A stretch of DNA of 12,040 nt. It comes from a virus (taxonomy: Duplodnaviria; Heunggongvirae; Uroviricota; Caudoviricetes). Under the pieces are notes generated by a model that was not told where the DNA came from, searched no databases, and was given only the letters and a program-made list of their open reading frames with translations. How positions within the stretch are numbered: position 1 is the stretch's first letter; every line of letters starts with the position of its first letter. Below are positions 189 to 12,040 of the stretch, piece by piece. The position numbers and the translations under genes are program-made. Where the stretch lies: the IMG/VR virus record IMGVR_UViG_2751185968_000006; one strand, written 5' to 3'.

Positions 189-243
189 GCAAGCACCTTA
201 AAATCACCATCATACACTAAATCAGTAAGTTGGCAGCATTACC
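1..243 (-). mobile_element. IS1-family insertion sequence, partial; continues beyond the left window edge, terminal inverted repeat ends at 243
   Basis: Reverse complement of 232-243 is GGTAATGCTGCC, followed by AACTTACTGATTTAGTGTATGATGGTG, matching the IS1 left terminal repeat as recalled. The insA reading frame follows on the minus strand. Confidence 0.85.
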
Positions 244-2605
244 AATTAACGGAGGGTATCAGTACATTGAAATGAATGGTACCGCAGAATACTCAGTATT
301 AAATGACGGTTATCAAATTGTTCAAATGGGTGGCGCGGCAAACCAGACTACCCTCAATAATGGTGTGCTACAGGTTTATGGCGCAGCGAATGATCCCACG
401 ATTAAAGGCGGGCGCTTAATCGTTGAAAAAGATGGGATTACCGTCCTTGCCGCTATCGAAAAGGGAGGATTACTGGAGGTTAAAGAGGGGGGATTAGCGA
501 TTGCGGTAGATCAGAAAGCAGGCGGTGCTATTAAAGCAAGCACGCGGGTCATGGAGGCATTCGGAATAAACCGTCTCGGTCAGTTCGAAATCAAGAATGG
601 TATTGCTAACAATATGCTGTTGGAAAACGGCGGAAGTTTGCGAGTTGAAGAAAATGACTTCGCTTATAATACTACTGTAGATAGTGGCGGCTTACTGGAG
701 GTTATGGATGGCGGGACTGCAACTGGCGTTGATAAAAAAGCAGGCGGAAAATTAATTGTCTCAACGAATGCGCTGGAAGTGAGTGGTACAAACAGTAAAG
801 GCCAATTTAGTATAAAAGATGGTGTGTCAAAAAATTATGAACTGGATGATGGTTCCGGGCTCATTGTTATGGAGGACACGCAGGCCATTGATACTATCCT
901 TGATGAGCATGCCACTATGCAATCGCTGGGAAAGGATACTGGTACGAAAGTGCAGGCAAATGCGGTATATGATCTCGGTCGATCAGACCAGAATGGAAGT
1001 ATCACGTATTCCTCTAAAGCCATCTCTGAAAATATGGTTATCAACAATGGCCGCGCTAATGTCTGGGCTGGCACAATGGTTAACGTGTCAGTCAGAGGGA
1101 ATGATGGCATTCTTGAGGTCATGAAGCCGCAAATAAATTATGCACCCGCTATGTTGGTGGGTAAGGTAGTGGTTTCTGAGGGCGCTTCTTTTAGAACGCA
1201 TGGTGCCGTGGATACCAGCAAAGCGGACGTTTCGCTCGAAAATAGCGTATGGGCCATCATTGCCGATATCACTACGACGAACCAAAACACCCTCCTCAAC
1301 TTAGCCAACCTTGCGATGTCTGACGCAAATGTGATTATGATGGATGAGCCAGTGACTCGTTCATCAGTGACGGCAAGTGCGGAAAATTTCATTACGTTGA
1401 CCACCAATACCCTGTCGGGAAACGGCAATTTTTATATGCGTACCGATATGGCTAATCATCAGAGCGATCAGCTCAACGTCACCGGTCAGGCAACAGGTGA
1501 TTTCAAAATATTCGTGACGGACACCGGTGCCAGCCCGGCAGCAGGAGATAGCCTTACACTGGTAACAACGGGCGGCGGTGATGCTGCATTTACGTTGGGC
1601 AATGCCGGAGGCGTTGTTGATATCGGTACGTATGAATATACCTTGCTGGATAATGGCAACCATAGCTGGAGTTTGGCAGAGAATCGCGCGCAAATTACCC
1701 CTTCAACCACTGATGTGCTGAATATGGCGGCCGCACAACCGCTGGTATTTGATGCAGAACTGGACACCGTGCGTGAGCGTCTTGGTAGCGTAAAAAGCGT
1801 TAGTTACGATACGGCGATGTGGAGTTCGGCAATTAACACCCGCAACAACGTGACCACTGATGCGGGAGCTGGTTTTGAGCAAACATTGACGGGCCTGACG
1901 CTCGGTATCGATAGCCGTTTCTCCCGTGAAGAAAGCAGTACAATTCGCGGCTTGTTCTTTGGTTACTCTCATTCTGATATTGGTTTTGATCGCGGCGGAA
2001 AAGGTAATATCGATAGCTATACCCTGGGGGCTTATGCCGGTTGGGAGCATCAGAACGGTGCCTATGTTGATGGGGTGGTGAAAGTTGACCGTTTTGCCAA
2101 CACCATCCATGGCAAGATGAGTAATGGGGCAACAGCGTTTGGCGATTACAATAGTAACGGCGCGGGTGCTCATGTTGAGAGCGGGTTCCGTTGGGTTGAC
2201 GGATTGTGGAGTGTTAGACCCTATCTGGCCTTTACCGGCTTTACCACAGATGGTCAGGACTACACGTTATCAAACGGCATGCGCGCTGATGTGGGAAATA
2301 CCCGGATATTACGCGCTGAAGCGGGAACGGCGGTAAGCTATCACATGGACCTGCAAAATGGTACGACGCTGGAACCCTGGCTGAAAGCCGCCGTACGTCA
2401 GGAATACGCCGATTCTAACCATGTGAAAGTTAATGACGATGGCAAATTTAATAATGATGTGGCTGGAACCCCTGGCGTTTATCAGGCTGGGATAAGGTCA
2501 TCGTTTACCCCGACGTTAAGCGGTCATTTGTCAGTCAGCTATGGCAATGGCGCAGGGGTAGAATCGCCGTGGAATACTCAGGCGGGAGTGGTCTGGACGT
2601 TCTGA
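230..2605 (+). CDS. AIDA-I/Ag43-type autotransporter adhesin, 5'-truncated by IS1 (probable pseudogene: no signal peptide, no credible start)
   Basis: 791-aa ORF with repetitive GG-x-L-x-V passenger-type repeats and a C-terminal beta-barrel-like domain ending in aromatic residues (VVWTF). The frame runs into the IS1 terminal repeat; the only start is a TTG at 230 inside IS1, with an in-frame stop at 218-220. Confidence 0.75.
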   Translation: MAALPINGGYQYIEMNGTAEYSVLNDGYQIVQMGGAANQTTLNNGVLQVYGAANDPTIKGGRLIVEKDGITVLAAIEKGGLLEVKEGGLAIAVDQKAGGAIKASTRVMEAFGINRLGQFEIKNGIANNMLLENGGSLRVEENDFAYNTTVDSGGLLEVMDGGTATGVDKKAGGKLIVSTNALEVSGTNSKGQFSIKDGVSKNYELDDGSGLIVMEDTQAIDTILDEHATMQSLGKDTGTKVQANAVYDLGRSDQNGSITYSSKAISENMVINNGRANVWAGTMVNVSVRGNDGILEVMKPQINYAPAMLVGKVVVSEGASFRTHGAVDTSKADVSLENSVWAIIADITTTNQNTLLNLANLAMSDANVIMMDEPVTRSSVTASAENFITLTTNTLSGNGNFYMRTDMANHQSDQLNVTGQATGDFKIFVTDTGASPAAGDSLTLVTTGGGDAAFTLGNAGGVVDIGTYEYTLLDNGNHSWSLAENRAQITPSTTDVLNMAAAQPLVFDAELDTVRERLGSVKSVSYDTAMWSSAINTRNNVTTDAGAGFEQTLTGLTLGIDSRFSREESSTIRGLFFGYSHSDIGFDRGGKGNIDSYTLGAYAGWEHQNGAYVDGVVKVDRFANTIHGKMSNGATAFGDYNSNGAGAHVESGFRWVDGLWSVRPYLAFTGFTTDGQDYTLSNGMRADVGNTRILRAEAGTAVSYHMDLQNGTTLEPWLKAAVRQEYADSNHVKVNDDGKFNNDVAGTPGVYQAGIRSSFTPTLSGHLSVSYGNGAGVESPWNTQAGVVWTF

Positions 2606-2698: not shown

Positions 2699-3109
2699 TG
2701 GGATTCACGAGAGTAGTTTAATTGAGCGTGTAACTTCATGATTTAAAATAATGTATATGATTCAACTTTTAAACCGTATAACCAAACGTATAACTAAAAT
2801 GATTTGCTGAAAAAATGCACAATTCAGGGTCGGATTTTCCCGGATGTTTAATTTATAAAAACGAAGCTGGTGGATGATCTGCGTGGTGATTTCCACCATT
2901 CAGAGCAGGGGCGGTCATCATGCCCATGCCATAACAAAAACCCCATATTCGTGGTTTTTCTGTGTTGTGGCTATTCTGCCGTTGCCGTGCTGGTGGATAT
3001 TTCCGTTATGGGGATCACCATATCGGCATCATGCCCACCAGCCAGCGCAATTTTGCGCTTTGCTTTAAGTTCAGCAAGTTACCGCGCCGGATTACGCCAA
3101 TGGCTGTTT

Positions 3110-3287
3110 CCGAAAGAATCAACGGGTTAGGCCTTAATGGGCTGCGTGGTAATTATCAGCATCCAGAATATGACGGGTTATGTTTCCGACCTCCTCAATT
3201 TGAGGTTCCCGAAAATATCAACGGGTTAGGCTGGTTTCCCCGATGTTCGCCGCTGGCGAATTTCGAAAATATCAACCAGTTACCGCC
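3110..3287 (+). repeat. Three direct copies of a ~22-bp motif (consensus near CGAAAATATCAACGGGTTAGGC) in a non-coding stretch at the element boundary
   Basis: Copies at 3110-3133 (CCGAAAGAATCAACGGGTTAGGCC), 3208-3232 (CCCGAAAATATCAACGGGTTAGGCT) and 3262-3287 (TTCGAAAATATCAACCAGTTACCGCC). A palindrome CCTCAATTTGAGG lies at 3193-3205. Confidence 0.5.
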
Positions 3288-3561
3288 GCAACCGCTCCGG
3301 CTTCTTCCAGTGGTATGTAATTTTCTCCGTTTCCCGATACAGTGCCACGCGGCGATTGTAGGCCAGCATTTCAAGAACGCGGATCCGTATGTTGCGCATA
3401 TCCACATCATTAAGCTGGATACCATCACGGCGCATCACCTCAGCAACAACACGCGCATAATTTTCGGCTGTCACGCTGTCCGGCTGCGTGGCCTGTTCGT
3501 CAGTCTGCTGGCTGATTCCACCAGCACGGCGGATTAATCCCAGTATTTCGGCTTCTGTCAT
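3280..3561 (-). CDS. Hypothetical protein (93 aa), last gene of the satellite-like element
   Basis: ORF with ATG at 3561 preceded by an AGGTG Shine-Dalgarno 4 nt upstream. No recognisable family. Confidence 0.5.
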   Translation of the reverse strand: MTEAEILGLIRRAGGISQQTDEQATQPDSVTAENYARVVAEVMRRDGIQLNDVDMRNIRIRVLEMLAYNRRVALYRETEKITYHWKKPERLRR

Positions 3562-3595
3562 TGTGCACCTATCGTTCTGATTGTCTGGTGTCGTC

Positions 3596-3780
3596 GGGTC
3601 CTTCCTGGAATTATGGACCCGTTACGGGGCGGCGACCTCGCGCGTTTTCACTATTTATGAAAATTTTTCGGGATCCATGTCCGGTTTCTCTACAAGTTAA
3701 CCATATGAAAAATATAAAAACATGCTTTCCATGAACCGGACATGCGCAAAAAACAGACACTAAAACCGGACATCGAACCA
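3596..3780 (+). other. Lambda-type cos site, copy A (plus orientation): cosQ-like flank, cosN, and cosB-like region with three ACCGGACAT repeats
   Basis: GTTACG at 3621-3626 then GGGCGGCGACCT at 3627-3638 (the 12-nt lambda cohesive-end sequence), then CGCGCGTTTTCACTATTTATGAAAATTTT resembling the lambda left end as recalled. Repeats: CATGTCCGG 3676-3684 (inverted), ACCGGACAT 3735-3743 and 3765-3773. Confidence 0.6.
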
Positions 3781-3841
3781 GTTAACCGAAAGTGTGCACA
3801 AATCACATGCATTGCTGCGAGTGATTAACAAGTTATCGGCT

Positions 3842-4276
3842 TTACTGTTCTGTATCGGCTGATTGCTCCATGCTGGCACGGCGAACGCTTACGGCATGAC
3901 GCCACCCAGCCAGAAAGCCAGCCATTTTATTTCGTGCCTTGCTCACATCTTCCGGTGAATAGCCGTAAATCTGCAAACCTTCATCAAATCGATGTTCTGT
4001 TTCTTCACTGGAGTACTCGTCACGCTCAGATGAAAGCAGCCTGGCAAACATAATTTTTTCCAGCGCACTGGTTTCTACGTGATATCTGATGGCCTCAAGA
4101 CGGCTTTTACCTGAAGACCAAAGCAATGTATGCCCGATGTGATAACCGCCAGACTTTCCGCGATCCGCATTAAGATACGGCATCCCCTGTTTGGTCCATG
4201 CGCGAATAGTGGTTCTGTTAACCTTGAAATGTTCAGCTATTTCCTGCTGACTTACAAAACAAGCTTTATCAATCAT
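3842..4276 (-). CDS. Terminase small subunit-like protein (lambda Nu1-type N-terminal HTH), 144 aa; candidate packaging-redirecting (Rpp-like) protein
   Basis: N-terminus QQEIAEHFKVNRTTIRAWTKQGMPY resembles lambda Nu1 KKQLADIFGASIRTIQNWQEQGMPV (from memory). It is shorter than Nu1, sits about 90 bp downstream of cos copy B on the same strand, and no large terminase gene is present. Confidence 0.7.
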   Translation of the reverse strand: MIDKACFVSQQEIAEHFKVNRTTIRAWTKQGMPYLNADRGKSGGYHIGHTLLWSSGKSRLEAIRYHVETSALEKIMFARLLSSERDEYSSEETEHRFDEGLQIYGYSPEDVSKARNKMAGFLAGWRHAVSVRRASMEQSADTEQ

Positions 4277-4343
4277 AATGTTACCTTAACTGCATGGTTA
4301 AATATTAATCAAGTGGTGGTGGTGTCACCTTCACGGAAAAACG

Positions 4344-4407
4344 TCATAAATAGCGAAAACCCGCGAGGTCGCCGCCCCGTAACGGGCCATAATTCCAGGA
4401 AGGACCC
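4344..4407 (-). other. Lambda-type cos site, copy B (minus orientation), immediately upstream of the TerS-like gene; inverted relative to copy A
   Basis: Minus-strand reading is GGGTCCTTCCTGGAATTATGGCCCGTTACG-GGGCGGCGACCT-CGCGGGTTTTCGCTATTTATGA; cosN lies at 4366-4377. About 64 bp are near-identical to copy A (3596-3660) in inverted orientation. Confidence 0.65.
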
Positions 4408-4409
4408 GC

Positions 4410-4431
4410 AAAAAAGCCGGATTTCTCCGGC
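4410..4431 (-). terminator. Rho-independent terminator-like hairpin after the 137-aa gene; copy 1 of a thrice-repeated hairpin
   Basis: Plus strand AAAAAA-GCCGGA-TTTC-TCCGGC (stem 4416-4421 / 4426-4431). On the minus strand the hairpin is followed by T6. Confidence 0.45.
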
Positions 4432-4437
4432 CTTGTC

Positions 4438-4851
4438 TCAGATGGTTTTCAGTATGCGATCGATGTCGCCGTCATCGCCTGGGTTTCTGCCATCGTATGC
4501 CATGCCAGCTGATACGGTTTGTGGGCTGTGCATGTCCATAAAGTTTTCAAAGGCTGCGGTAAGCTCTGGTGCAACCTTCGGGCGTTCCTGCTCTATGGTC
4601 ATGTTCAGGATGTTTTTAGCCGTATCAACATCGATACAAGGCACGTTTGCCATTGCACGCAACAGCGGCTGATAGTCTTTATGCTCATGAAGCGCCATAA
4701 TCGCATCAGCGCGCGGCTTGTCCTGCTCTTCCAGTTTGTTGAGTTGATATACGGCCTCGTAGGTTGATAAACCTCTGTCAGCCATTGCCCGCGCTTCGGC
4801 TTTAAATTTACTCGCCAGCGGTAGCGCCATGATGCTTTCATTCGTTGCCAT
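4438..4851 (-). CDS. Hypothetical protein (137 aa) between decoration-like gene and cos; possible head or packaging accessory protein
   Basis: ORF with ATG at 4851 and a GGGGGA Shine-Dalgarno sequence. Position matches a capsid/packaging module; no family recognised. Confidence 0.5.
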   Translation of the reverse strand: MATNESIMALPLASKFKAEARAMADRGLSTYEAVYQLNKLEEQDKPRADAIMALHEHKDYQPLLRAMANVPCIDVDTAKNILNMTIEQERPKVAPELTAAFENFMDMHSPQTVSAGMAYDGRNPGDDGDIDRILKTI

Positions 4852-4863
4852 CGTTCCCCCTGC

Positions 4864-5167
4864 TTATCGGGCCAGCGGCTGAACGGATACGCCAGAACCC
4901 GCAAAGGCGGCGCATTTTTTCGCATCGGTGTCGACGCTCTCAGGCCAGTTAACGGCGGCAATATTGAATATCCCCGTCTTGTAACACTGTGCTGATTTCT
5001 GCTTTGACGTGTCCACGAGGTACGAAGTCAGATAAACAGCCTTGCCAGATTCCTGACCATCCCACGGCTTAAACTCGCCATTGTCCACCAGCATCAGCGG
5101 CAAAATGTACCAGTGTCGTTGATACCTGCTGACTGCCTGCAAATAACTCAATATATGGAGTGTCCAT
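4864..5167 (-). CDS. Head decoration protein, lambda gpD-like; possibly frameshifted
   Basis: The C-terminal frame (supplied ORF 4864-5151) reads PLMLVD...WDGQ...YKTGIF...WPESVD...KKCAAFAGSG, paralleling lambda gpD PLMLD...WDG...YKSGTF...WPEA...KKRTAFAG (from memory). The only ATG with a good RBS (GGGGGA) is at 5167 in another frame, which stops at 5069. Confidence 0.55.
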
Positions 5168-5178
5168 ATAATCCCCCG

Positions 5179-6234
5179 TTAACCAATTTTGACGGTAACA
5201 AATTTGCGAATATCTGCCGGAACCGGCTGCGGTGCGCTGTGTGTCTGCACGTACTCAATCGCCGGATCGCCGTCCTCAATCCAGTTTTTCGGGTAGTACA
5301 TGTTTTGCGTTGCGCCCGTTCTTACCGCTTCCTGATCCATAATCGCACCATAGGCCACCAGCCCTTTATTGTTGGTGTTGCCCAGGACCAGCAAATCAGG
5401 CTCAAGGAAATATTTTTCGGTGCCGTCGCTGTCAGTGTATTTGCCGGAATAGACAATAAGAGCAATATCGCCCAGATAGCCTTTAAAGCTCACCACTTCG
5501 CCCAGGTTTTTACAGGCCATTTCTGCGGCGGATTCTGAACCACGGGAAAGATCGTACAGTTCACGGAATTTTTTAAAGCTGCGTAACGTGCGCCATACCT
5601 CAGCGCCCATAATCATGACGTTGGCGGGGCAACCTGCCTGATCTGCGTATAGTTCGATGTCATAGATTGGATCGTAAATATCTTTATCATGCTCGGACCA
5701 TTTTTTGCCGTCGGACTGCTCTATGATGTTTTTTTCCGGTATCTTCCAGTCGATTTCATAGCGTTCTATGCCTTCGCCCTCAATGATGTTTTTTCCGGTC
5801 GTTACCGCATTCACCGCCAGCCATTCCACGCGTGCCTTAATGGCGTTTATCTGGCGGCGCATGTTGCCAGTAATCAGGCGCATACGGCGATAGGTAGGGT
5901 CGTTAAGCTGTGCCGGATCTTCTCCAGCCATGCGCATGATGGTTTTCGTTGGATCGATTTCGTGCTTTGGCTTCATGTAGCCAGGTTTGATTGTGCTGGT
6001 TTCGTACCCTTTATCGCGCTGAACCTGGCTACCCACCATAGGCGAACAAAACGCCGACATGGTGACTTCTTCAATGTCCAGGGTATCCAGCATGATGTTT
6101 TGCGTGCTGAATGTCGCCACGTTCGGGAAAAACAGCGTGGTAAACAGAGGGCTGAATTTAAAATCCGCAATATCCCCGCGATTCAGGTACATAAAAAGCT
6201 GGTTAGTGTTAAGTGCCGTTGCTTTGCCTGCCAT
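5179..6234 (-). CDS. Major capsid protein, lambda gpE family (351 aa)
   Basis: Collinear similarity to lambda gpE as recalled: FKFSPLFTTLFF vs FKFDPLFLRLFF, PGYMKPKHEIDP vs PGYVKPKHEVNP, DPTYRRMRLITGNMR vs DPAYRRRRIIMQNMR, YKGYLGDIALIVYSG vs YKGMYGDVAIVVYSG, YPKNWIEDGDPA vs YPKNWVTTGDPA. Confidence 0.9.
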   Translation of the reverse strand: MAGKATALNTNQLFMYLNRGDIADFKFSPLFTTLFFPNVATFSTQNIMLDTLDIEEVTMSAFCSPMVGSQVQRDKGYETSTIKPGYMKPKHEIDPTKTIMRMAGEDPAQLNDPTYRRMRLITGNMRRQINAIKARVEWLAVNAVTTGKNIIEGEGIERYEIDWKIPEKNIIEQSDGKKWSEHDKDIYDPIYDIELYADQAGCPANVMIMGAEVWRTLRSFKKFRELYDLSRGSESAAEMACKNLGEVVSFKGYLGDIALIVYSGKYTDSDGTEKYFLEPDLLVLGNTNNKGLVAYGAIMDQEAVRTGATQNMYYPKNWIEDGDPAIEYVQTHSAPQPVPADIRKFVTVKIG

Positions 6235-6440
6235 TATTCACCCCCATAATTTTTATGCATCCCAAGCGCCGCAAGTAAATAAGAGCGTACAAGTGAACCT
6301 ATCGACGGCTCCGGCGTCATCAGCGGATCCAGTCCAGCCGCCACGCCAGCCTCATAGTTTTTTTTGTGGCGCTGCTTGAGCACCTCCACGATTTCGGGGC
6401 TTATGTACACCGAAACACCGCCTTTTTTCTCTTCAGCCAT
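6234..6440 (-). CDS. Hypothetical small protein (about 68 aa), translationally coupled to the major capsid gene
   Basis: Likely start at ATG 6440 (MAEEKKGG...) with AAGAGGAA upstream; the supplied ORF extends to 6473 without an RBS. Its stop overlaps the capsid start as TAATG at 6232-6236. Confidence 0.45.
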   Translation of the reverse strand: MAEEKKGGVSVYISPEIVEVLKQRHKKNYEAGVAAGLDPLMTPEPSIGSLVRSYLLAALGMHKNYGGE

Positions 6441-6493
6441 AGTAAGAAATTCCTCTTCGACTAAAAAAATCATAACTGGATGTTTATCCAGTC

Positions 6494-6524
6494 CTGATTA
6501 TAATCAGAATTGCATTTTATGCAA
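6494..6524 (-). promoter_or_regulatory. Putative sigma70-type promoter for the capsid module, with both hexamers inside palindromes
   Basis: Minus strand: -35 TTGCAT (plus 6519-6524), 16-bp spacer, -10 TATAAT (plus 6497-6502). The -10 lies in the palindrome CTGATTATAATCAG (6494-6507) and the -35 in TTGCATTTTATGCAA (6510-6524). Confidence 0.4.
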
Positions 6525-6604
6525 TAATATTGAGTTATGTTGCAAATTATGAAATGATTATCCCGATCACGAACGCCAGTGCATCCAAAAACCTCATATG
6601 CAAA

Positions 6605-6642
6605 AGCCCGATAAGAACCCTCTGACCTTATCGGGCTTTTTT
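6605..6642 (+). terminator. Terminator-like hairpin with T6 tail on the plus strand
   Basis: Stem AGCCCGATAAG (6605-6615) / CTTATCGGGCT (6627-6637), followed by TTTTTT (6637-6642). No obvious plus-strand gene lies upstream. Confidence 0.4.
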
Positions 6643-6648
6643 GGGCGC

Positions 6649-6670
6649 AAAAAAGCCGGATTGCTCCGGC
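6649..6670 (-). terminator. Rho-independent terminator-like hairpin after the 74-aa gene; copy 2 of the repeated hairpin
   Basis: Plus strand AAAAAA-GCCGGA-TTGC-TCCGGC (stem 6655-6660 / 6665-6670); T6 follows on the minus strand. Confidence 0.45.
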
Positions 6671-6690
6671 TATGTGTGCTGTGTGCTGGA

Positions 6691-6915
6691 TCAGTCTCTG
6701 ATCTCTTTCAGAAATTCTATCAATGCATCTATCTGTTCAGGATTTACCGCCAGCATTTCACCGGATAGAGCACATCTCACAAAACCATGCTGATCCTTTT
6801 CAATCAGTGCGCCCGTCTCCAGGAATGCGCGGTAATCATTGATGCTCATCGTCTCCATGTTGTCAGCATGGTATTTATCACGCTGTTTTAATATCTCATC
6901 AAATTTCATCGGCAT
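6691..6915 (-). CDS. Hypothetical protein (74 aa), stand-alone cassette
   Basis: ATG at 6915 with an AGAGGAAA Shine-Dalgarno sequence. Bracketed by terminator hairpins at 7012-7033 (upstream) and 6649-6670 (downstream). Confidence 0.5.
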   Translation of the reverse strand: MPMKFDEILKQRDKYHADNMETMSINDYRAFLETGALIEKDQHGFVRCALSGEMLAVNPEQIDALIEFLKEIRD

Positions 6916-7011
6916 TGTTTTTTTCCTCTGTTGTGTCTGTTTGTTTCAGATAGTAACTATGCCTGACCGTGACGAAAACCCGGTAATGCGCCATACCGTT
7001 TCAACTGGTGC

Positions 7012-7033
7012 AAAAAAGCCGGATTTCTCCGGC
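7012..7033 (-). terminator. Rho-independent terminator-like hairpin after the PerC-like gene; copy 3 of the repeated hairpin
   Basis: Plus strand AAAAAA-GCCGGA-TTTC-TCCGGC (stem 7018-7023 / 7028-7033); T6 follows on the minus strand. Confidence 0.45.
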
Positions 7034-7040
7034 TGTTTGA

Positions 7041-7313
7041 TTAGCTGTCCTGGTAATTGCGCCATATTTCATCACCAGCACCATCTATACCCATTTCGGC
7101 ATAAGTGCGATCGACTGCCTTTTTCAGGTCTCCGAAATTATCCGGCGGCTCCGGTGCCCTCTGTGCCTTCCTTGAACATTCCAGCCGTCGCATCGTGATG
7201 TGATGCCGTTCCTTGTCTGTCTCCACCAGCTGCATGACTTCACCCCATCGCGCCGCCGCCCTCCGGTAAAAGCCTTTCGCCTCCAGTTCCTCCGCTATGC
7301 GGTCATGTACCAT
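7041..7313 (-). CDS. PerC-family-like transcriptional regulator (about 90 aa)
   Basis: Likely start at ATG 7313 with a strong GAGGGGGTG RBS. The protein MVHDRIAEELEAKGFYRRAAARWGEVMQLVETDKERHHITMRRLEC fits the PerC/Pch pattern (LE..G.WRRAA.RW...TD.ER) as recalled. Confidence 0.45.
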   Translation of the reverse strand: MVHDRIAEELEAKGFYRRAAARWGEVMQLVETDKERHHITMRRLECSRKAQRAPEPPDNFGDLKKAVDRTYAEMGIDGAGDEIWRNYQDS

Positions 7314-7323
7314 CGTCACCCCC

Positions 7324-7734
7324 TCAGAACGAAATATCATCACCGTAAGGGTCATCGCCTCCCGCTGGTGGCTGATTACCCTGTGTGCCTGTGGTTTTGC
7401 GTCTGTTCCCGCCTGGACGTGCCGCGCGGGCACTGATTACGCTGTCTGCGATAACCTGCCAGCCCTGCCGCGTTTCTCCGTTCTGTCCGGTCCACTGGCT
7501 TACCTGCATCGTGCCGGATACGCTGGCAACATCGCCTTTTTGATGTTTAGCCAGGAAGTCGGCCTGTTTGCCAAATGCGATGACCGATAACCATAACGTC
7601 GCCTGTCCGTCCTGTGCCTGGCTGCATGGCAAAGATACCGCCATACGCGCCAGCGTCATCGGTGTGCCCTTGCTGGTCTGTTTTACCTGCGGGTCGTCCA
7701 CCAGCCGCCCGTAAGCGGCTATCTGTGCCGTCAT
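7324..7734 (-). CDS. Single-stranded DNA-binding protein (SSB)-like, 136 aa
   Basis: N-terminus IAAYGRLVDDPQVK resembles the SSB OB-fold start (VILVGNLGQDPEVR), and the C-terminal acidic tip PYGDDISF resembles DDDIPF. The start overlaps the upstream stop as ATGA. Confidence 0.65.
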   Translation of the reverse strand: MTAQIAAYGRLVDDPQVKQTSKGTPMTLARMAVSLPCSQAQDGQATLWLSVIAFGKQADFLAKHQKGDVASVSGTMQVSQWTGQNGETRQGWQVIADSVISARAARPGGNRRKTTGTQGNQPPAGGDDPYGDDISF

Positions 7735-7982
7735 AATTCCACCTCTCCGGTTTTAACGTTGATGGTTGTTACCTGTTCCGCTTCGGCAATCTCCCGTTCT
7801 GTCAGCGTGGCAAAGTTTGCCGCCGCCGTGGTCATGAATGCGCTTATCAGGTCGGGATGTTCCTTCGCGTATCCTTCCCGCGTGTGGCGGTCTATCGTTC
7901 TGATTGCCACCTTTAAGGTGTGCTCAGTCATGTCTAACGCTTTATATTTTGGCTCTGTTCTGTCTCTGCGTTTTTGGGTCAT
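7731..7982 (-). CDS. Hypothetical protein (83 aa from ATG 7982; the supplied ORF extends to a GTG at 8012)
   Basis: ORF translationally coupled to the SSB-like gene. The upstream extension overlaps the iteron array, so the ATG at 7982 is the more likely start. Confidence 0.45.
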   Translation of the reverse strand: MTQKRRDRTEPKYKALDMTEHTLKVAIRTIDRHTREGYAKEHPDLISAFMTTAAANFATLTEREIAEAEQVTTINVKTGEVEL

Positions 7983-7993
7983 TTCTCGCAACC

Positions 7994-8181
7994 TCTCACT
8001 TTTTCGCCTCACTTTTTCAAGCGTCTCACTTCGTCGCAGTTGGGATTTTCGGTTTTTCTATGTGTGTGTTTTATAAGTATTTTTTTACCCCTCACTTTTG
8101 AGGATGTATACAGGTCGAAAAGTGAGGGAGAGCGGGCTAATTTTGGCCCTCTTTCTATCCCCCTCGCTTTTGCTCCTCACT
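7994..8181. repeat. Iteron array and AT-rich region: putative satellite origin of replication, immediately downstream of the replication gene
   Basis: Seven copies of CCTCACTTTT-like motifs: CTCACT at 7995-8000, 8008-8013, 8025-8030, 8091-8096 and 8176-8181, an inverted copy at 8118-8127, and a variant CTCGCT at 8163-8168. An AT-rich stretch lies at 8041-8087; copies 4 and 5 form 12-bp inverted arms 16 bp apart. Confidence 0.5.
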
Positions 8182-8182
8182 T

Positions 8183-8530
8183 TTATAGCGGCGCTACATC
8201 ATCCCCATCGATACTAATAACCCCATCTTTTTCCAGCTTGTACAGCCAGCGCCGGAAGTTTTTCATTTCATACCCCAGCTTTTTCATGTCATCACGTAAC
8301 AGCGGGATCGTGCACTTGTCGCCGTTCTGTGTGCGTGAACGGATGCACCCCCATAGCGCGGTATGGTTTTCCGTCTTGTTCCCTGCCTCCTCGATGCGCT
8401 CCAGTTCAACAGGAGGGCGCGGATCATCCACCACCACCAGCGACGTGATTAATTCACCGTCAGCGTCGGTAAAAAGCTCCACCACGCGTAAGTCATATGC
8501 GGCTTCTTTGAGTTCCTCCGCGTCCTTCAT
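8183..8530 (-). CDS. Replication protein, C-terminal fragment (second piece of a frameshifted primase/helicase-type gene)
   Basis: This frame stays open upstream of the annotated ATG to about 8638 and there encodes DESARGSSAFRASLDAEY, the expected continuation after the HHSGKD motif of RecA-like replication ATPases. Confidence 0.6.
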   Translation of the reverse strand: MKDAEELKEAAYDLRVVELFTDADGELITSLVVVDDPRPPVELERIEEAGNKTENHTALWGCIRSRTQNGDKCTIPLLRDDMKKLGYEMKNFRRWLYKLEKDGVISIDGDDVAPL

Positions 8531-9582
8531 TTTGGTGCATGAGATAACCAGCGCTTTGCTTCCTGCGTCCTCCCTGCGTATCCGGTATTCAGCATCCAGC
8601 GAAGCACGAAATGCACTGGAACCGCGCGCGCTTTCGTCTCATCCTTGCCGGAATGGTGAACCACCAGCACCGTGGCCCCTGTGCGTCGTTTCAGTTCGTC
8701 ACAACCACGGATAAACGCCCCCATATCACGGGAATCATTTTCATCATTCCCACCAAAGCAACGCGCCAGCGTATCCAGAATAATCATGCGTACAGGTTTA
8801 CCCGTTTCCCGCTCCACCTGACGGGCAGCGATAACCATTTCATCAACATCAAGCGGGGCAGCCGGAAAGATGGGGCGGTTTACCAGATACAGATTTTTCA
8901 CCTGCTCATCGTGCACAACCTCCCAGGCTTTTACACGACGCGGAACGCCGATACCGCCTTCACCAACCACATAGAGAACCGCACCATGTGCAACCCTGCG
9001 GCCTCCCCACTGGCGACCAGTGGCAACATGGCACGCCCACGATCCGGCAAGGAATGATTTATAGGACCCGCTAGCCCCGTATATGCTGCATAGCGATACC
9101 GCCGGAATAATCCCCTTAACCACGTAATCCAGTTGCGTGTCGTATCCGGTAGATCCAACGCTCATCGGTAGCGTGGTTTTTCGCTGGTGGTTTTTTTCTT
9201 CCACCGGCTCTTTCCCGCGCACCCGTTCCAGGTATTCGCGCCAGTTCTCCCGCATATGGCTGTGCATCCCTTCGGGGTAATAATTCGCATCAGTTACACC
9301 CGCCGCCGCCAGCTTGTGCGCAATGGCATTAATATTTGATGGCCTGATGTGGCCTGCCTTGTACAGCCGGACACAATAGCGCCCCTCGTCGATGATTCTC
9401 AGGTCTGCCAGTTCATCCAGTTGATCATCAGCCAGCACAACGGGAGGCACATTATCGCCAGCCAGTCGCCCGTCCTGTTCCTGCCACTGTTTTGCATGTG
9501 CCCAGGCATCACTACCCGCAAAAATAATGACTTCGGTCATCTTGTCGTAAGGCTGTTTTTTTAAGTTCGGTGCGCTTTTCAT
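8527..9582 (-). CDS. Primase/helicase-type replication protein (RepA-like P-loop ATPase), N-terminal fragment ending prematurely after a frameshift
   Basis: Walker A GASGSYKS, Walker B MIILDTLARCF, then VLVVHHSGKDE typical of RepA-like helicases. The frame then reads TKARAVPVHF... to a stop at 8527, just downstream of a (CG)4 tract at 8623-8631. Confidence 0.75.
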   Translation of the reverse strand: MKSAPNLKKQPYDKMTEVIIFAGSDAWAHAKQWQEQDGRLAGDNVPPVVLADDQLDELADLRIIDEGRYCVRLYKAGHIRPSNINAIAHKLAAAGVTDANYYPEGMHSHMRENWREYLERVRGKEPVEEKNHQRKTTLPMSVGSTGYDTQLDYVVKGIIPAVSLCSIYGASGSYKSFLAGSWACHVATGRQWGGRRVAHGAVLYVVGEGGIGVPRRVKAWEVVHDEQVKNLYLVNRPIFPAAPLDVDEMVIAARQVERETGKPVRMIILDTLARCFGGNDENDSRDMGAFIRGCDELKRRTGATVLVVHHSGKDETKARAVPVHFVLRWMLNTGYAGRTQEAKRWLSHAPK

Positions 9583-11452: not shown

Positions 11453-11659
11453 TTAAGCAGCCGTTCCGCGTGCTTCCTGTTCGCGTTCTTTCTGCCAGGC
11501 CAACACATCATCCTCATACCATCCGCGACGGCGTAAACCAACGCGAAAACCCTGCGGAAATTCTCCGGCGTTGATCATGCTTTGCAGCGTGCTGTCTGCC
11601 TTGATGTGGATAATTTTTTTTACTTCCTGGCGAAAGATAATTTTTCTGATTGCTTCCAT
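11453..11659 (-). CDS. alpA: AlpA-family (phage excisionase/regulator-like) DNA-binding protein, 68 aa
   Basis: KADSTLQSMINAGEFPQGFRVGLRRRGWYEDDVLAWQ matches the AlpA/Xis-type pattern (...FP.P.K.G.R...W...EV..W) as recalled. Confidence 0.7.
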   Translation of the reverse strand: MEAIRKIIFRQEVKKIIHIKADSTLQSMINAGEFPQGFRVGLRRRGWYEDDVLAWQKEREQEARGTAA

Positions 11660-11764
11660 CGTGATTTACCTTGTGAATCCGGTGTATTCCGGTGACAAAT
11701 ACGGTAAATCATCGGATATGGGTAAAAACAGTTCCCACCGTTTTTAAACGGTATACACCGTTTT

Positions 11765-12040
11765 GGTAATGACTCCAACTTACTGATAGTGTTTTATGTT
11801 CAGATAATGCCCGATGACCTTGTCATGCAGCTCCACCGATTTTGAGAACGACAGTGACTTCCGTCCCAGCCTTGCCAGATGTTGTCTCAGATTCAGATTA
11901 TGTCGCTCAATGCGCTGAGTGTAACGCTTGCTGATAACGTGCAGCTTTCCCTTCAGGCGTGATTCATACAGCGGCCAGCCATCCGTCATCCATACCACGA
12001 CCTCAAAGGCCGACAGCAGGCTCAGAAGACGCTCCAGTGT
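11765..12040 (-). mobile_element. IS1-family insertion sequence, partial; right terminal repeat at 11765, continues beyond the right window edge
   Basis: GGTAATGACTCCAACTTACTGATAGTGTTTTATGTTCAGATAATGCCCGATGAC from 11765 matches the IS1 right terminal repeat as recalled. The insB frame follows on the minus strand. Confidence 0.9.
11780..12040 (-). CDS. insB: IS1 InsB transposase, C-terminal part (gene runs off the window edge)
   Basis: Minus-strand translation [86 protein letters not shown] matches the InsB C-terminus as recalled; it is in frame to the window edge. Confidence 0.85.

What the first reader, a model, noticed from the sequence alone, without database searches (positions are those of the whole stretch)
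3842..4276. Short TerS homolog with no large terminase: candidate packaging redirector
The 144-aa protein has a Nu1-like N-terminal HTH but is shorter than Nu1 (181 aa), and no TerL gene is present in this window. In E. coli PICIs a TerS-like protein (Rpp) is reported to form heterocomplexes with helper TerS and retarget packaging to the island's cos. The position directly after a cos site fits that role.
Basis: partly seen in the sequence, partly recalled or inferred. Interest (0 to 1): 0.55.

Follow-up and report, generated by a model that had tools for sequence, protein, structure and literature searches.

The report
Known satellite packaging redirector gene rppA

Summary
The ORF at 3842-4276 is real, lies on the minus strand and encodes 144 aa. 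It is 100% identical to the CFT073 protein WP_000565609.1, the product of c1503, named RppA in Fillol-Salom et al. 2019 (Mol Cell 75:1020, PMC6739421). That identity has three supports:
- The published numbering fits (144 residues; R21-T22, L51, F121).
- A published c1503 mutagenesis primer matches 3876-3955.
- The published cos1 sequence runs straight into this ATG.

RppC, whose crystal structures are 6HLK and 6HN7, matches at E = 5e-31. Lambda Nu1 matches only over the N-terminal winged helix-turn-helix. The Nu1 central and C-terminal TerL-binding part is absent. No TerL is encoded in the window or in the CFT073 island.

The gene sits between the two published, convergent cos sites. cos1 lies upstream, with the ATG at bp 102. 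cos2 lies downstream.

Verdict: observation confirmed, interpretation supported, already known, low interest.

Side observations:
- cos2 carries a complete phage-type cosB, 92% identical to that of PhiR12-type lambdoid phages, where TerS and TerL follow it.
- The segment cosB2-rppA-cosB1 swaps as one unit between sibling islands.
- This island copy has a frameshifted replicase and an IS1 at its integrase end.

The parts
3842..4276 (-). rppA coding sequence (144 aa plus stop): N-terminal winged HTH and a helical dimerisation region, with no Nu1 C-terminal TerL-binding part
   Evidence: ORF. 100% identical to CFT073 WP_000565609.1. RppC structures 6HLK/6HN7 match at E = 5.3e-31 over residues 2-125. 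Published c1503 primer matches 3876-3955.
4277..4412 (-). cos1, the RppA-dependent packaging site. It reads cosQ-like GGGTCCTTCC, then cosN, then cosB1, then the rppA ATG at bp 102.
   Evidence: Minus-strand reading. Identical from cosN to the ATG to the published EcCICFT073 cos1 in Fig S1A of PMC6739421. Murialdo and Feiss give an rpp start at bp 102 for PICI-C.
4366..4377 (-). cosN of cos1: the 12-nt cohesive-end sequence GGGCGGCGACCT
   Evidence: Exact match. Two matches in the window against 0.03 expected.
4313..4330 (-). bp 48-65 of cos1 (AGGTGACACCACCACCAC), the stretch Murialdo and Feiss proposed as the Rpp-binding 'R3-PICI'
   Evidence: Coordinates computed. The proposal is in PMC9026076. 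Binding was not tested here.
3590..3773 (+). cos2, the second cos site, convergent with cos1. It comprises a cosQ-like element, cosN at 3627-3638 and a complete phage-type cosB.
   Evidence: Inverted repeats I1 and I2. Matches the published EcCICFT073 cos2 sequence. 92% identical over 180 nt to the cos/cosB of phages PhiR12_1 and relatives.
3677..3686 (-). R3-like box of cosB2 (AACCGGACAT, inverted), bp 51-60 from cosN
   Evidence: Three exact copies in the window against 0.01 expected.
3734..3743 (+). R2-like box of cosB2, bp 108-117
   Evidence: Conserved in PhiR12_1.
3764..3773 (+). R1-like box of cosB2, bp 138-147. Similarity to the phage ends right after it.
4410..4433 (-). Terminator-like hairpin (GGCCGGAGAAAUCCGGCC-like stem followed by UUUUUU) between the upstream 137-aa gene and cosQ of cos1
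   Evidence: RNA fold -18.9 kcal/mol, z = -2.6. The consensus scan did not flag it.
4301..4328 (-). Weak sigma-70-like site (GTGACA, 16 nt, AATATT) overlapping cosB1. It is a possible promoter for rppA.
   Evidence: Consensus scan only, 9 of 12 matches. Four sites were found in the region against 2.2 expected, so this is not significant.
4438..6234 (-). Island head-gene homologues upstream of cos1: a 137-aa Nu3/scaffold-like protein (4438-4851), a lambda D-like decoration protein (4864-5151) and a lambda E-like major capsid protein (5179-6234). They correspond to c1501, c1500 and c1499.
   Evidence: Pfam HDPD 1.7e-13 and Phage_cap_E 3.4e-51. phrog_53 C-terminal part 2.7e-9. Deleting c1499 or c1500 affected neither interference nor transfer (PMC6092414).

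Best explanation
The gene is rppA, the 'redirecting phage packaging' gene of an EcCICFT073-type phage-inducible chromosomal island (PICI).

Mechanism, as published for the identical protein:
- RppA is a homodimer with a Nu1-like winged-HTH DNA-binding domain but no TerL-binding tail.
- When a lambda-, phi80- or 21-type helper phage develops, RppA forms a heterocomplex with the helper's small terminase (TerS/Nu1).
- This complex no longer recognises the helper's cosB, so helper packaging is blocked.
- The complex does recognise the island's own cosB1, immediately upstream of rppA.
- The TerS partner brings the helper's TerL, which cuts at the lambda-like cosN of cos1 and packages island DNA into helper capsids.

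Shown here: the identity of the protein, of cos1 and of cos2; the absence of the Nu1 C-terminal region; the absence of TerL.

Taken from the literature and inferred to apply here: binding to TerS, interference with the helper, and cos1 dependence.
For: - Protein identity 144/144 with CFT073 WP_000565609.1, in the gene order capsid (c1499), decoration (c1500), 137-aa gene, rppA, 93-aa gene.
- The published c1503 F121R primer matches 3876-3955 with only the engineered TTT-to-CGT change.
- RppA is stated to be 144 residues, and R21-T22, L51 and F121 coincide with those residues here.
- RppC (PDB 6HLK; 6HN7 in complex with the lambda TerS N-terminal domain) matches at E = 5.3e-31 over residues 2-125.
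- Similarity to Nu1 is limited to the N-terminal HTH.
- cos1 from cosN to the ATG is identical to the published cos1, with the ATG at bp 102.
- Experimental mechanism in PMC6739421 and PMC6092414, reviewed in PMC9026076.
- No TerL in the window or in the CFT073 island.
Against: Nothing contradicts the identification. Four caveats apply.
1. No function was tested here. Everything functional rests on the published work with the identical protein.
2. This island copy differs from EcCICFT073 outside the packaging cassette. It sits at the yejO/tRNA-Pro site and has a RepA-helicase-type replicase. It may also be immobile, given a 1-nt deletion in repA and an IS1 at the int end.
3. The cosQ side of cos1 differs from CFT073 at several bases.
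4. The exact DNA contact site of Rpp-TerS in cosB1 is only a proposal.
Confidence: 0.95

Rival explanations
1. In this particular island copy rppA acts only as an anti-phage interference gene. It blocks packaging of lambdoid helpers by sequestering TerS, but the island itself can no longer replicate or excise, so nothing is redirected. This concerns the role at this locus and does not dispute that the protein is RppA.
For: The replicase gene carries a 1-nt deletion near 8632/8633 relative to the intact 465-aa homologue. This splits it into ORFs 8527-9582 and 8183-8530. Similarity to sibling islands stops at 11764, an IS1 transposase fragment follows, and no integrase is seen in the window. The R21A/T22A mutant of RppA still blocks phage packaging while failing to promote island packaging, so interference alone is a separable activity.
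Against: The frameshift could be a sequencing error. The integrase may lie beyond the IS1, outside the window. In the published plasmid assays a cos1-bearing pET28a plasmid was transduced by helper phage and RppA increased that transfer, so cos1 DNA can be packaged without the island's own replicase, at least at some level.
Confidence: 0.3
2. It is an autonomous small terminase (Nu1 family) of the island that binds the helper's TerL directly and needs no helper TerS. SaPI TerS works this way, and so, by inference, does the 180-aa Nu1-family protein in sibling islands.
For: The N-terminal HTH resembles TerS. The gene follows a cos site as Nu1 does in lambda. Sibling islands at the same chromosomal site carry a genuine Nu1-family protein in this slot (Pfam Phage_Nu1 1.4e-22, 45% identical to N15 gp1).
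Against: There is no Pfam Phage_Nu1 match. There is no similarity to Nu1 beyond residue about 70, and the conserved central and C-terminal Nu1 block is absent. Deleting the helper's terS abolishes transfer of EcCICFT073. Escape mutants map to helper TerS.
Confidence: 0.02
3. It is a generic HTH transcription regulator or excisionase (MerR/HTH_17-like) unrelated to packaging.
For: Weak Pfam hits to HTH_28, HTH_36, HTH_17 and MerR_1 on residues 6-45, E = 0.002-0.009.
Against: All those hits are below the Pfam gathering scores. The strong match is to RppC. The published genetics tie the identical protein to TerS and cos1.
Confidence: 0.02

Closest known systems
RppA (c1503) of EcCICFT073, E. coli CFT073 (Fillol-Salom et al. 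2019, PMC6739421)
   Same: The protein is identical in all 144 residues. cosB1 and cosB2 are the same, as is the convergent two-cos arrangement. The neighbouring Nu3-like, D-like and E-like genes are the same.
   Different: The island backbone and insertion site differ. Here the island lies next to yejO, at the tRNA-Pro site used by sibling islands, whereas EcCICFT073 lies next to phoQ. The replicase is of the RepA-helicase type with a primase-type N-terminus, not the 584-aa primase. The cosQ side of cos1 differs at several bases.
RppC (PDB 6HLK; 6HN7 in complex with the lambda TerS N-terminal domain)
   Same: Homologous over residues 2-125, covering the DNA-binding domain and the helical dimerisation region, at E = 5.3e-31. 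R21-T22 and L51 are conserved according to the paper.
   Different: RppC has 153 residues and is 43.65% identical to RppA. It binds lambda TerS more strongly, and escape requires two TerS mutations. [quoted passage not shown]
Lambda gpNu1 / phage 21 gp1 small terminase (Pfam PF07471 Phage_Nu1)
   Same: N-terminal winged HTH of similar sequence (30% over about 55 residues). The gene sits directly after cosQ-cosN-cosB.
   Different: RppA has no Nu1 oligomerisation or TerL-binding region and no adjacent terL. It does not reach the Pfam threshold. It recognises a different cosB.
SaPI TerS plus Ppi (Staphylococcus aureus pac islands)
   Same: The outcome is the same: helper packaging is blocked and the satellite genome is packaged preferentially (discussion of PMC6739421).
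   Different: SaPIs use two proteins, their own TerS that binds phage TerL and Ppi that inhibits phage TerS. Rpp does both jobs by converting the helper's TerS. SaPIs use pac (headful) packaging, not cos packaging.
180-aa Nu1-family TerS of sibling yejO/tRNA-Pro islands (WP_024222726.1, L002 6714-7256)
   Same: It occupies the same slot between two convergent cos sites, in islands 91-94% identical on both flanks.
   Different: It is a full-length Nu1-family protein (Pfam 1.4e-22; 45% identical to N15 gp1). It has no detectable similarity to RppA (E = 1.0) and has different cosB sequences.

Membership tests
Rpp (redirecting phage packaging) proteins of Gram-negative cos-type PICIs | Sequence homology to RppA, RppB or RppC | tested here: met
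   100% identical to the CFT073 RppA protein. E = 5.3e-31 to RppC chains 6HLK/6HN7. The c1503 primer matches.
Rpp (redirecting phage packaging) proteins of Gram-negative cos-type PICIs | Functional residues: R21-T22 (alpha-2 DNA recognition), L51 (heterodimer patch) and F121 (alpha-6 homodimerisation) | tested here: met
   The residues are read directly from the translation and alignment. Their roles are given in PMC6739421.
Rpp (redirecting phage packaging) proteins of Gram-negative cos-type PICIs | The gene lies directly downstream of a cos with lambda-like cosQ and cosN and a non-lambda cosB | tested here: met
   cosN at 4366-4377 on the minus strand, ATG at bp 102, and cosB1 identical to the published cos1.
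Rpp (redirecting phage packaging) proteins of Gram-negative cos-type PICIs | Lacks a TerL-binding C-terminal domain, and the island has no TerL | tested here: met
   No Phage_Nu1 hit. The alignment shows the Nu1 central and C-terminal block missing. No TerL in the window or in the CFT073 island.
Rpp (redirecting phage packaging) proteins of Gram-negative cos-type PICIs | Resides in a PICI (int, alpA, replicase and ori, no tail or lysis genes) | tested here: inconclusive
   Present: an AlpA-like gene, a replicase (frameshifted), SSB, PerC and capsid homologues. No integrase is in the window, because an IS1 fragment interrupts it from about 11765. The sibling island L002 has int next to tRNA-Pro.
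Rpp (redirecting phage packaging) proteins of Gram-negative cos-type PICIs | Binds helper TerS, blocks helper packaging and promotes cos1-dependent packaging | not testable with these tools
   Published for the identical protein (PMC6739421).
Phage_Nu1 small terminase (Pfam PF07471) | Reaches the Pfam gathering score for Phage_Nu1 | tested here: not met
   No hit at E up to 0.01. Lambda Nu1, 21 gp1, PhiR12 Nu1 and the sibling-island TerS all pass.
Phage_Nu1 small terminase (Pfam PF07471) | N-terminal winged-HTH DNA-binding domain | tested here: met
   30% identity over residues 8-71 against Nu1 residues 3-55. PHROG 57 hits residues 7-47. The PDB Nu1 N-terminal domains score E about 0.1.
Phage_Nu1 small terminase (Pfam PF07471) | C-terminal oligomerisation and TerL-binding region, with an adjacent terL gene | tested here: not met
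   (no similarity, and shorter). (no terL).

The most novel reading that the evidence does not exclude
The rppA gene itself is not new. The most novel reading the evidence leaves open concerns its surroundings and has two parts.

First, cos2 may not be a degenerate duplicate. It may be a complete, functional helper-type cos whose cosB, with three AACCGGACAT boxes, belongs to a third TerS specificity class: PhiR12-type lambdoid phages with the 169-aa TerS WP_000235436.1. The island would then have two packaging routes: Rpp-dependent through cos1 for lambda, phi80 and 21-type helpers, and Rpp-independent through cos2 for PhiR12-type helpers.

Second, cosB2, the rpp or terS gene and cosB1 may form one exchangeable 'specificity cassette' that recombines at the conserved cosN segments.

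The sequence relationships are shown here. The function is inferred. The three papers read call the island cosB sequences 'completely divergent' from those of lambda, phi80 and phi4, and none of them links cos2 to a phage cosB.
Probability: 0.4. Interest if true: 0.35.

Novelty: already known. Interest (0 to 1): 0.1.

Why it matters
Rpp is the textbook case of a satellite that reprograms a helper phage's DNA-recognition subunit instead of bringing its own terminase. It explains how cos-type pathogenicity islands spread in E. coli while suppressing their helpers. Finding another exact copy adds no new principle.

It does show that RefSeq still labels the gene 'hypothetical protein', so scans will keep rediscovering it. 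It also shows the same packaging cassette moving between island backbones and integration sites.

The side observation would modestly extend the model of helper range for these islands, if experiments confirm it. That observation is that cos2 is a bona fide phage-type cos of another specificity, and that the cassette swaps at the cos sites.

Tried and rejected
- Pfam and NCBIfam scans of the 144-aa protein gave only sub-threshold generic HTH hits (Pfam) or nothing (NCBIfam). No curated family captures Rpp, and a plain HTH-regulator reading was rejected in favour of the RppC and RppA matches.
- The promoter and terminator consensus scan of 3200-4900 was not above background: 4 promoter-like sites against 2.2 expected. 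The rppA promoter therefore remains unassigned. The hairpin at 4410-4433 was seen only by folding.
- I considered whether cos2's cosB equals that of phage 21 or of the natural CFT073 helper phi4. It does not. The 21/phi4 boxes are CATGTCGGnCCT-like and are arranged differently.
- A literature search for the PhiR12 phages found no paper.
- No tRNA gene lies in the window, so the att site could not be placed from the window alone.
- I deliberately did not run the large protein-database searches, structure prediction or fold search. An exact match to an experimentally characterised protein, plus a 44%-identical crystal structure, made them unnecessary.
- The first blastn script read a multi-record file as a single subject. 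It was repeated record by record.

Full report
**Observation.** The window has an ATG-initiated ORF of 144 codons at 3842-4276 on the minus strand. It is flanked by two copies of the lambda cohesive-end sequence GGGCGGCGACCT, on the plus strand at 3627-3638 and on the minus strand at 4366-4377. Only 0.03 such sites were expected by chance, and no shuffle gave two. Each copy sits inside a longer inverted repeat: 3595-3673 against 4331-4408, 88-96% complementary. Read on the minus strand, the upstream copy runs cosQ-like, cosN, about 55 nt, then ATG, with the ATG at bp 102 from the first base of the cohesive end.

**Identity.** A megablast of 3500-4500 against complete E. coli genomes found the whole segment in 83 of 5,426 genomes, including CFT073 at 98%. 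In CFT073 the segment lies in the island between phoQ and an integrase. The gene order there is major capsid, head decoration, a 137-aa protein, a 144-aa 'hypothetical protein' WP_000565609.1, and a 93-aa protein. The window protein is 144/144 identical to WP_000565609.1.

Fillol-Salom et al. 2019 (PMC6739421) named the product of EcCICFT073 gene c1503 RppA. They give its length as 144 residues and mutated R21-T22, L51 and F121. Those positions hold exactly those residues here. The companion paper assigns c1499 to the capsid gene and c1500 to the decoration gene (PMC6092414), which fits the gene order. Their c1503 F121R mutagenesis primer matches the window at 3876-3955 on the minus strand, with only the engineered TTT-to-CGT change. 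Their printed cos1 sequence runs into ATGATTGATAAAGCTTG..., the start of this ORF. The gene is rppA.

**Relation to TerS.**
- Against solved structures the best match is RppC (6HLK; 6HN7 with the lambda TerS N-terminal domain), E = 5.3e-31 over residues 2-125. The lambda Nu1 N-terminal domain chains score only E about 0.1.
- Pairwise BLASTP against full-length lambda Nu1 aligns residues 8-71 with Nu1 residues 3-55 at 30% identity, and nothing else.
- PHROG 57 (small terminase) hits residues 7-47 only.
- Pfam Phage_Nu1 is not matched, and only sub-threshold HTH families appear. Lambda Nu1, phage 21 gp1, a PhiR12 TerS and a sibling-island TerS all pass that model.
- In a five-protein alignment RppA lacks the conserved Nu1 central and C-terminal block and ends 35-40 residues short.
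- No ORF in the window could encode a large terminase. The only one above 351 aa is the YejO-type autotransporter. The annotated CFT073 island has none either.

So the protein works with a Nu1-like DNA-binding domain but is not a member of the Nu1 family.

**Mechanism.** This is taken from the literature for the identical protein and was not tested here.
- Expression of c1503 blocks lambda and phi80 plaque formation. HK97 is insensitive.
- Escape mutants map to helper TerS, at E65K, and at Y50N/E65K for RppC.
- RppA binds wild-type TerS in a two-hybrid assay but not the escape variants, and it forms homodimers.
- Deleting rppA lowers island transfer. Deleting the helper's terS abolishes it.
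- RppA lowers transfer of plasmids carrying phage cos sites and raises transfer of a cos1 plasmid. Swapping cosB shows that cosB1 is the determinant. The R21A/T22A mutant still blocks the phage but no longer promotes island packaging.
- Murialdo and Feiss (PMC9026076) argue that Rpp lacks a TerL-binding domain, so the TerS partner is what recruits TerL. They propose bp 48-65 of cos as the Rpp contact. That stretch is 4313-4330 here.

**Which cos is which.** The sequences printed in Fig S1A of the 2019 paper and Fig S5 of the 2018 paper make cos1 the site upstream of rppA (window 4277-4412, minus strand). They make cos2 the plus-strand site at about 3590-3800. In the window, cos1 is identical to CFT073 from cosN to the ATG. 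On the cosQ side it differs, and there it resembles cos2.

**Context of this copy.** The window is not from CFT073. Its left flank is a yejO-type autotransporter. The best complete-genome matches cover at most 83% of the window at about 94% identity, and they are islands between yejO and tRNA-Pro.

Blastn of the window against the sibling island L002 gives 91-94% identity for 3131-3673 and for 4336-9190. There is no similarity for 3674-4335. Against CFT073 the similarity is continuous over 3097-6683. In L002 the unmatched slot holds a 180-aa protein annotated as small terminase. That protein passes Pfam Phage_Nu1 (1.4e-22), is 45% identical to N15 gp1, and has no similarity to RppA. It lies between two convergent cos sites with different cosB sequences.

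The unit cosB2, rpp or terS gene, cosB1 therefore exchanges as a cassette. Its breakpoints fall at about bp 42-48 of each cos, where the conserved cosN segment ends.

The replicase gene of this copy has a 1-nt deletion near 8632/8633 relative to L002, which splits it into two ORFs. Similarity to other islands stops at 11764, where an IS1 fragment begins. No integrase or tRNA gene is in the window. This copy may therefore be immobile while still able to interfere with helper phages.

**Side observation on cos2.** Downstream of cosN of cos2 there are three exact AACCGGACAT boxes, at bp 51-60 (inverted), 108-117 and 138-147. Only 0.01 were expected. This layout resembles the R3, R2 and R1 boxes of a lambdoid cosB.

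The segment 3594-3773 is 92% identical to the cos region of phages PhiR12_1, _2, _4 and _5. There it is followed within 50 nt by a 169-aa Nu1-family TerS, then TerL, W and the portal gene. The same arrangement occurs in E. coli prophages with TerS WP_000235436.1. Similarity to the phages ends right after the third box.

The boxes of phage 21, and of the natural CFT073 helper phi4, are related but distinct. [quoted passage not shown] For cos2 this holds relative to lambda, phi80 and phi4, but not relative to PhiR12-type phages. Whether cos2 lets such phages package the island without Rpp is an inference that needs the experiment listed in the next steps.

**Other neighbours.** The 137-aa gene upstream of cos1 matches the C-terminal part of the head maturation protease and scaffold family (phrog_53 positions 494-567 of 583). 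With the D-like and E-like genes, the island looks like a lambda head-gene block, Nu1 through E, that has lost A, W, B and most of C. Deleting the capsid or decoration homologue had no effect on interference or transfer in the published work. A terminator-like hairpin lies between that gene and cos1. The promoter of rppA is not established.

**Verdict.** Novelty is 'already known' and interest is low. The only points that go beyond the papers read are the phage-type cosB at cos2 and the cassette exchange at the cos sites. Both are recorded as side observations.

Noticed in passing
window 3590-3773 (+): cos2 carries a complete phage-type cosB with three exact AACCGGACAT boxes (3677-3686 inverted, 3734-3743, 3764-3773). 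It is 92% identical to the cos/cosB of PhiR12-type lambdoid phages and prophages, where a 169-aa TerS (WP_000235436.1) and TerL follow. The papers read describe the island cosB sequences only as divergent from lambda, phi80 and phi4.
   Followed up: partly
window 3674-4335, compared with L002 6570-7359: The segment cosB2-rppA-cosB1 is replaced as a unit in sibling yejO/tRNA-Pro islands. There it becomes a different cosB pair around a 180-aa Nu1-family TerS that is 45% identical to N15 gp1. Both flanks stay 91-94% identical, so the breakpoints sit at the conserved cosN segments.
   Followed up: partly
window 8183-9582 (-), deletion near 8632/8633: The RepA-helicase-type replicase is split into ORFs of 351 aa and 115 aa by a 1-nt deletion relative to the intact 465-aa gene of L002. 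This is either a pseudogene or a sequencing error. The N-terminal part of the gene (about 9217-9582) resembles the CFT073 primase instead, so the gene is mosaic.
   Followed up: partly
window 11765-12040: An IS1 transposase fragment (InsB C-terminus, ORF 11780-11998 on the minus strand) begins where similarity to sibling islands ends, just past the AlpA-like gene (11453-11659). The expected integrase and tRNA-Pro are not in the window.
   Followed up: partly
window 4438-4851 (-): The 137-aa 'hypothetical' protein (c1501 homologue) matches the C-terminal part of the head maturation protease and scaffold family (phrog_53 positions 494-567 of 583). Together with the D-like and E-like genes, the island head block looks like the lambda Nu1-to-E block with A, W, B and most of C deleted.
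   Followed up: no
window 3106-3132, 3205-3231, 3259-3285 (+): Three direct repeats of about 27 nt (GTTYCCGAAARAATCAACGGGTTAGGC-like) lie at the left end of the island, partly inside the 3' end of the 93-aa gene. They could be integrase or excisionase arm sites or another protein-binding array. This was not examined.
   Followed up: no
window 4384-4408 compared with L001 (CFT073) cos1: In this window the cosQ-proximal side of cos1 (CCTTCCTGGAATTATGG) is like that of cos2 and unlike CFT073 cos1 (CCTTTCCGGCATATGGA). This lengthens the inverted repeat and suggests gene conversion between the two cos sites.
   Followed up: no
window 230-2605 (+): There is a yejO-type autotransporter ORF of 791 aa as listed. 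The same gene is annotated as a pseudogene with an internal stop in the sibling genome L002. It forms the chromosomal flank of the island.
   Followed up: no
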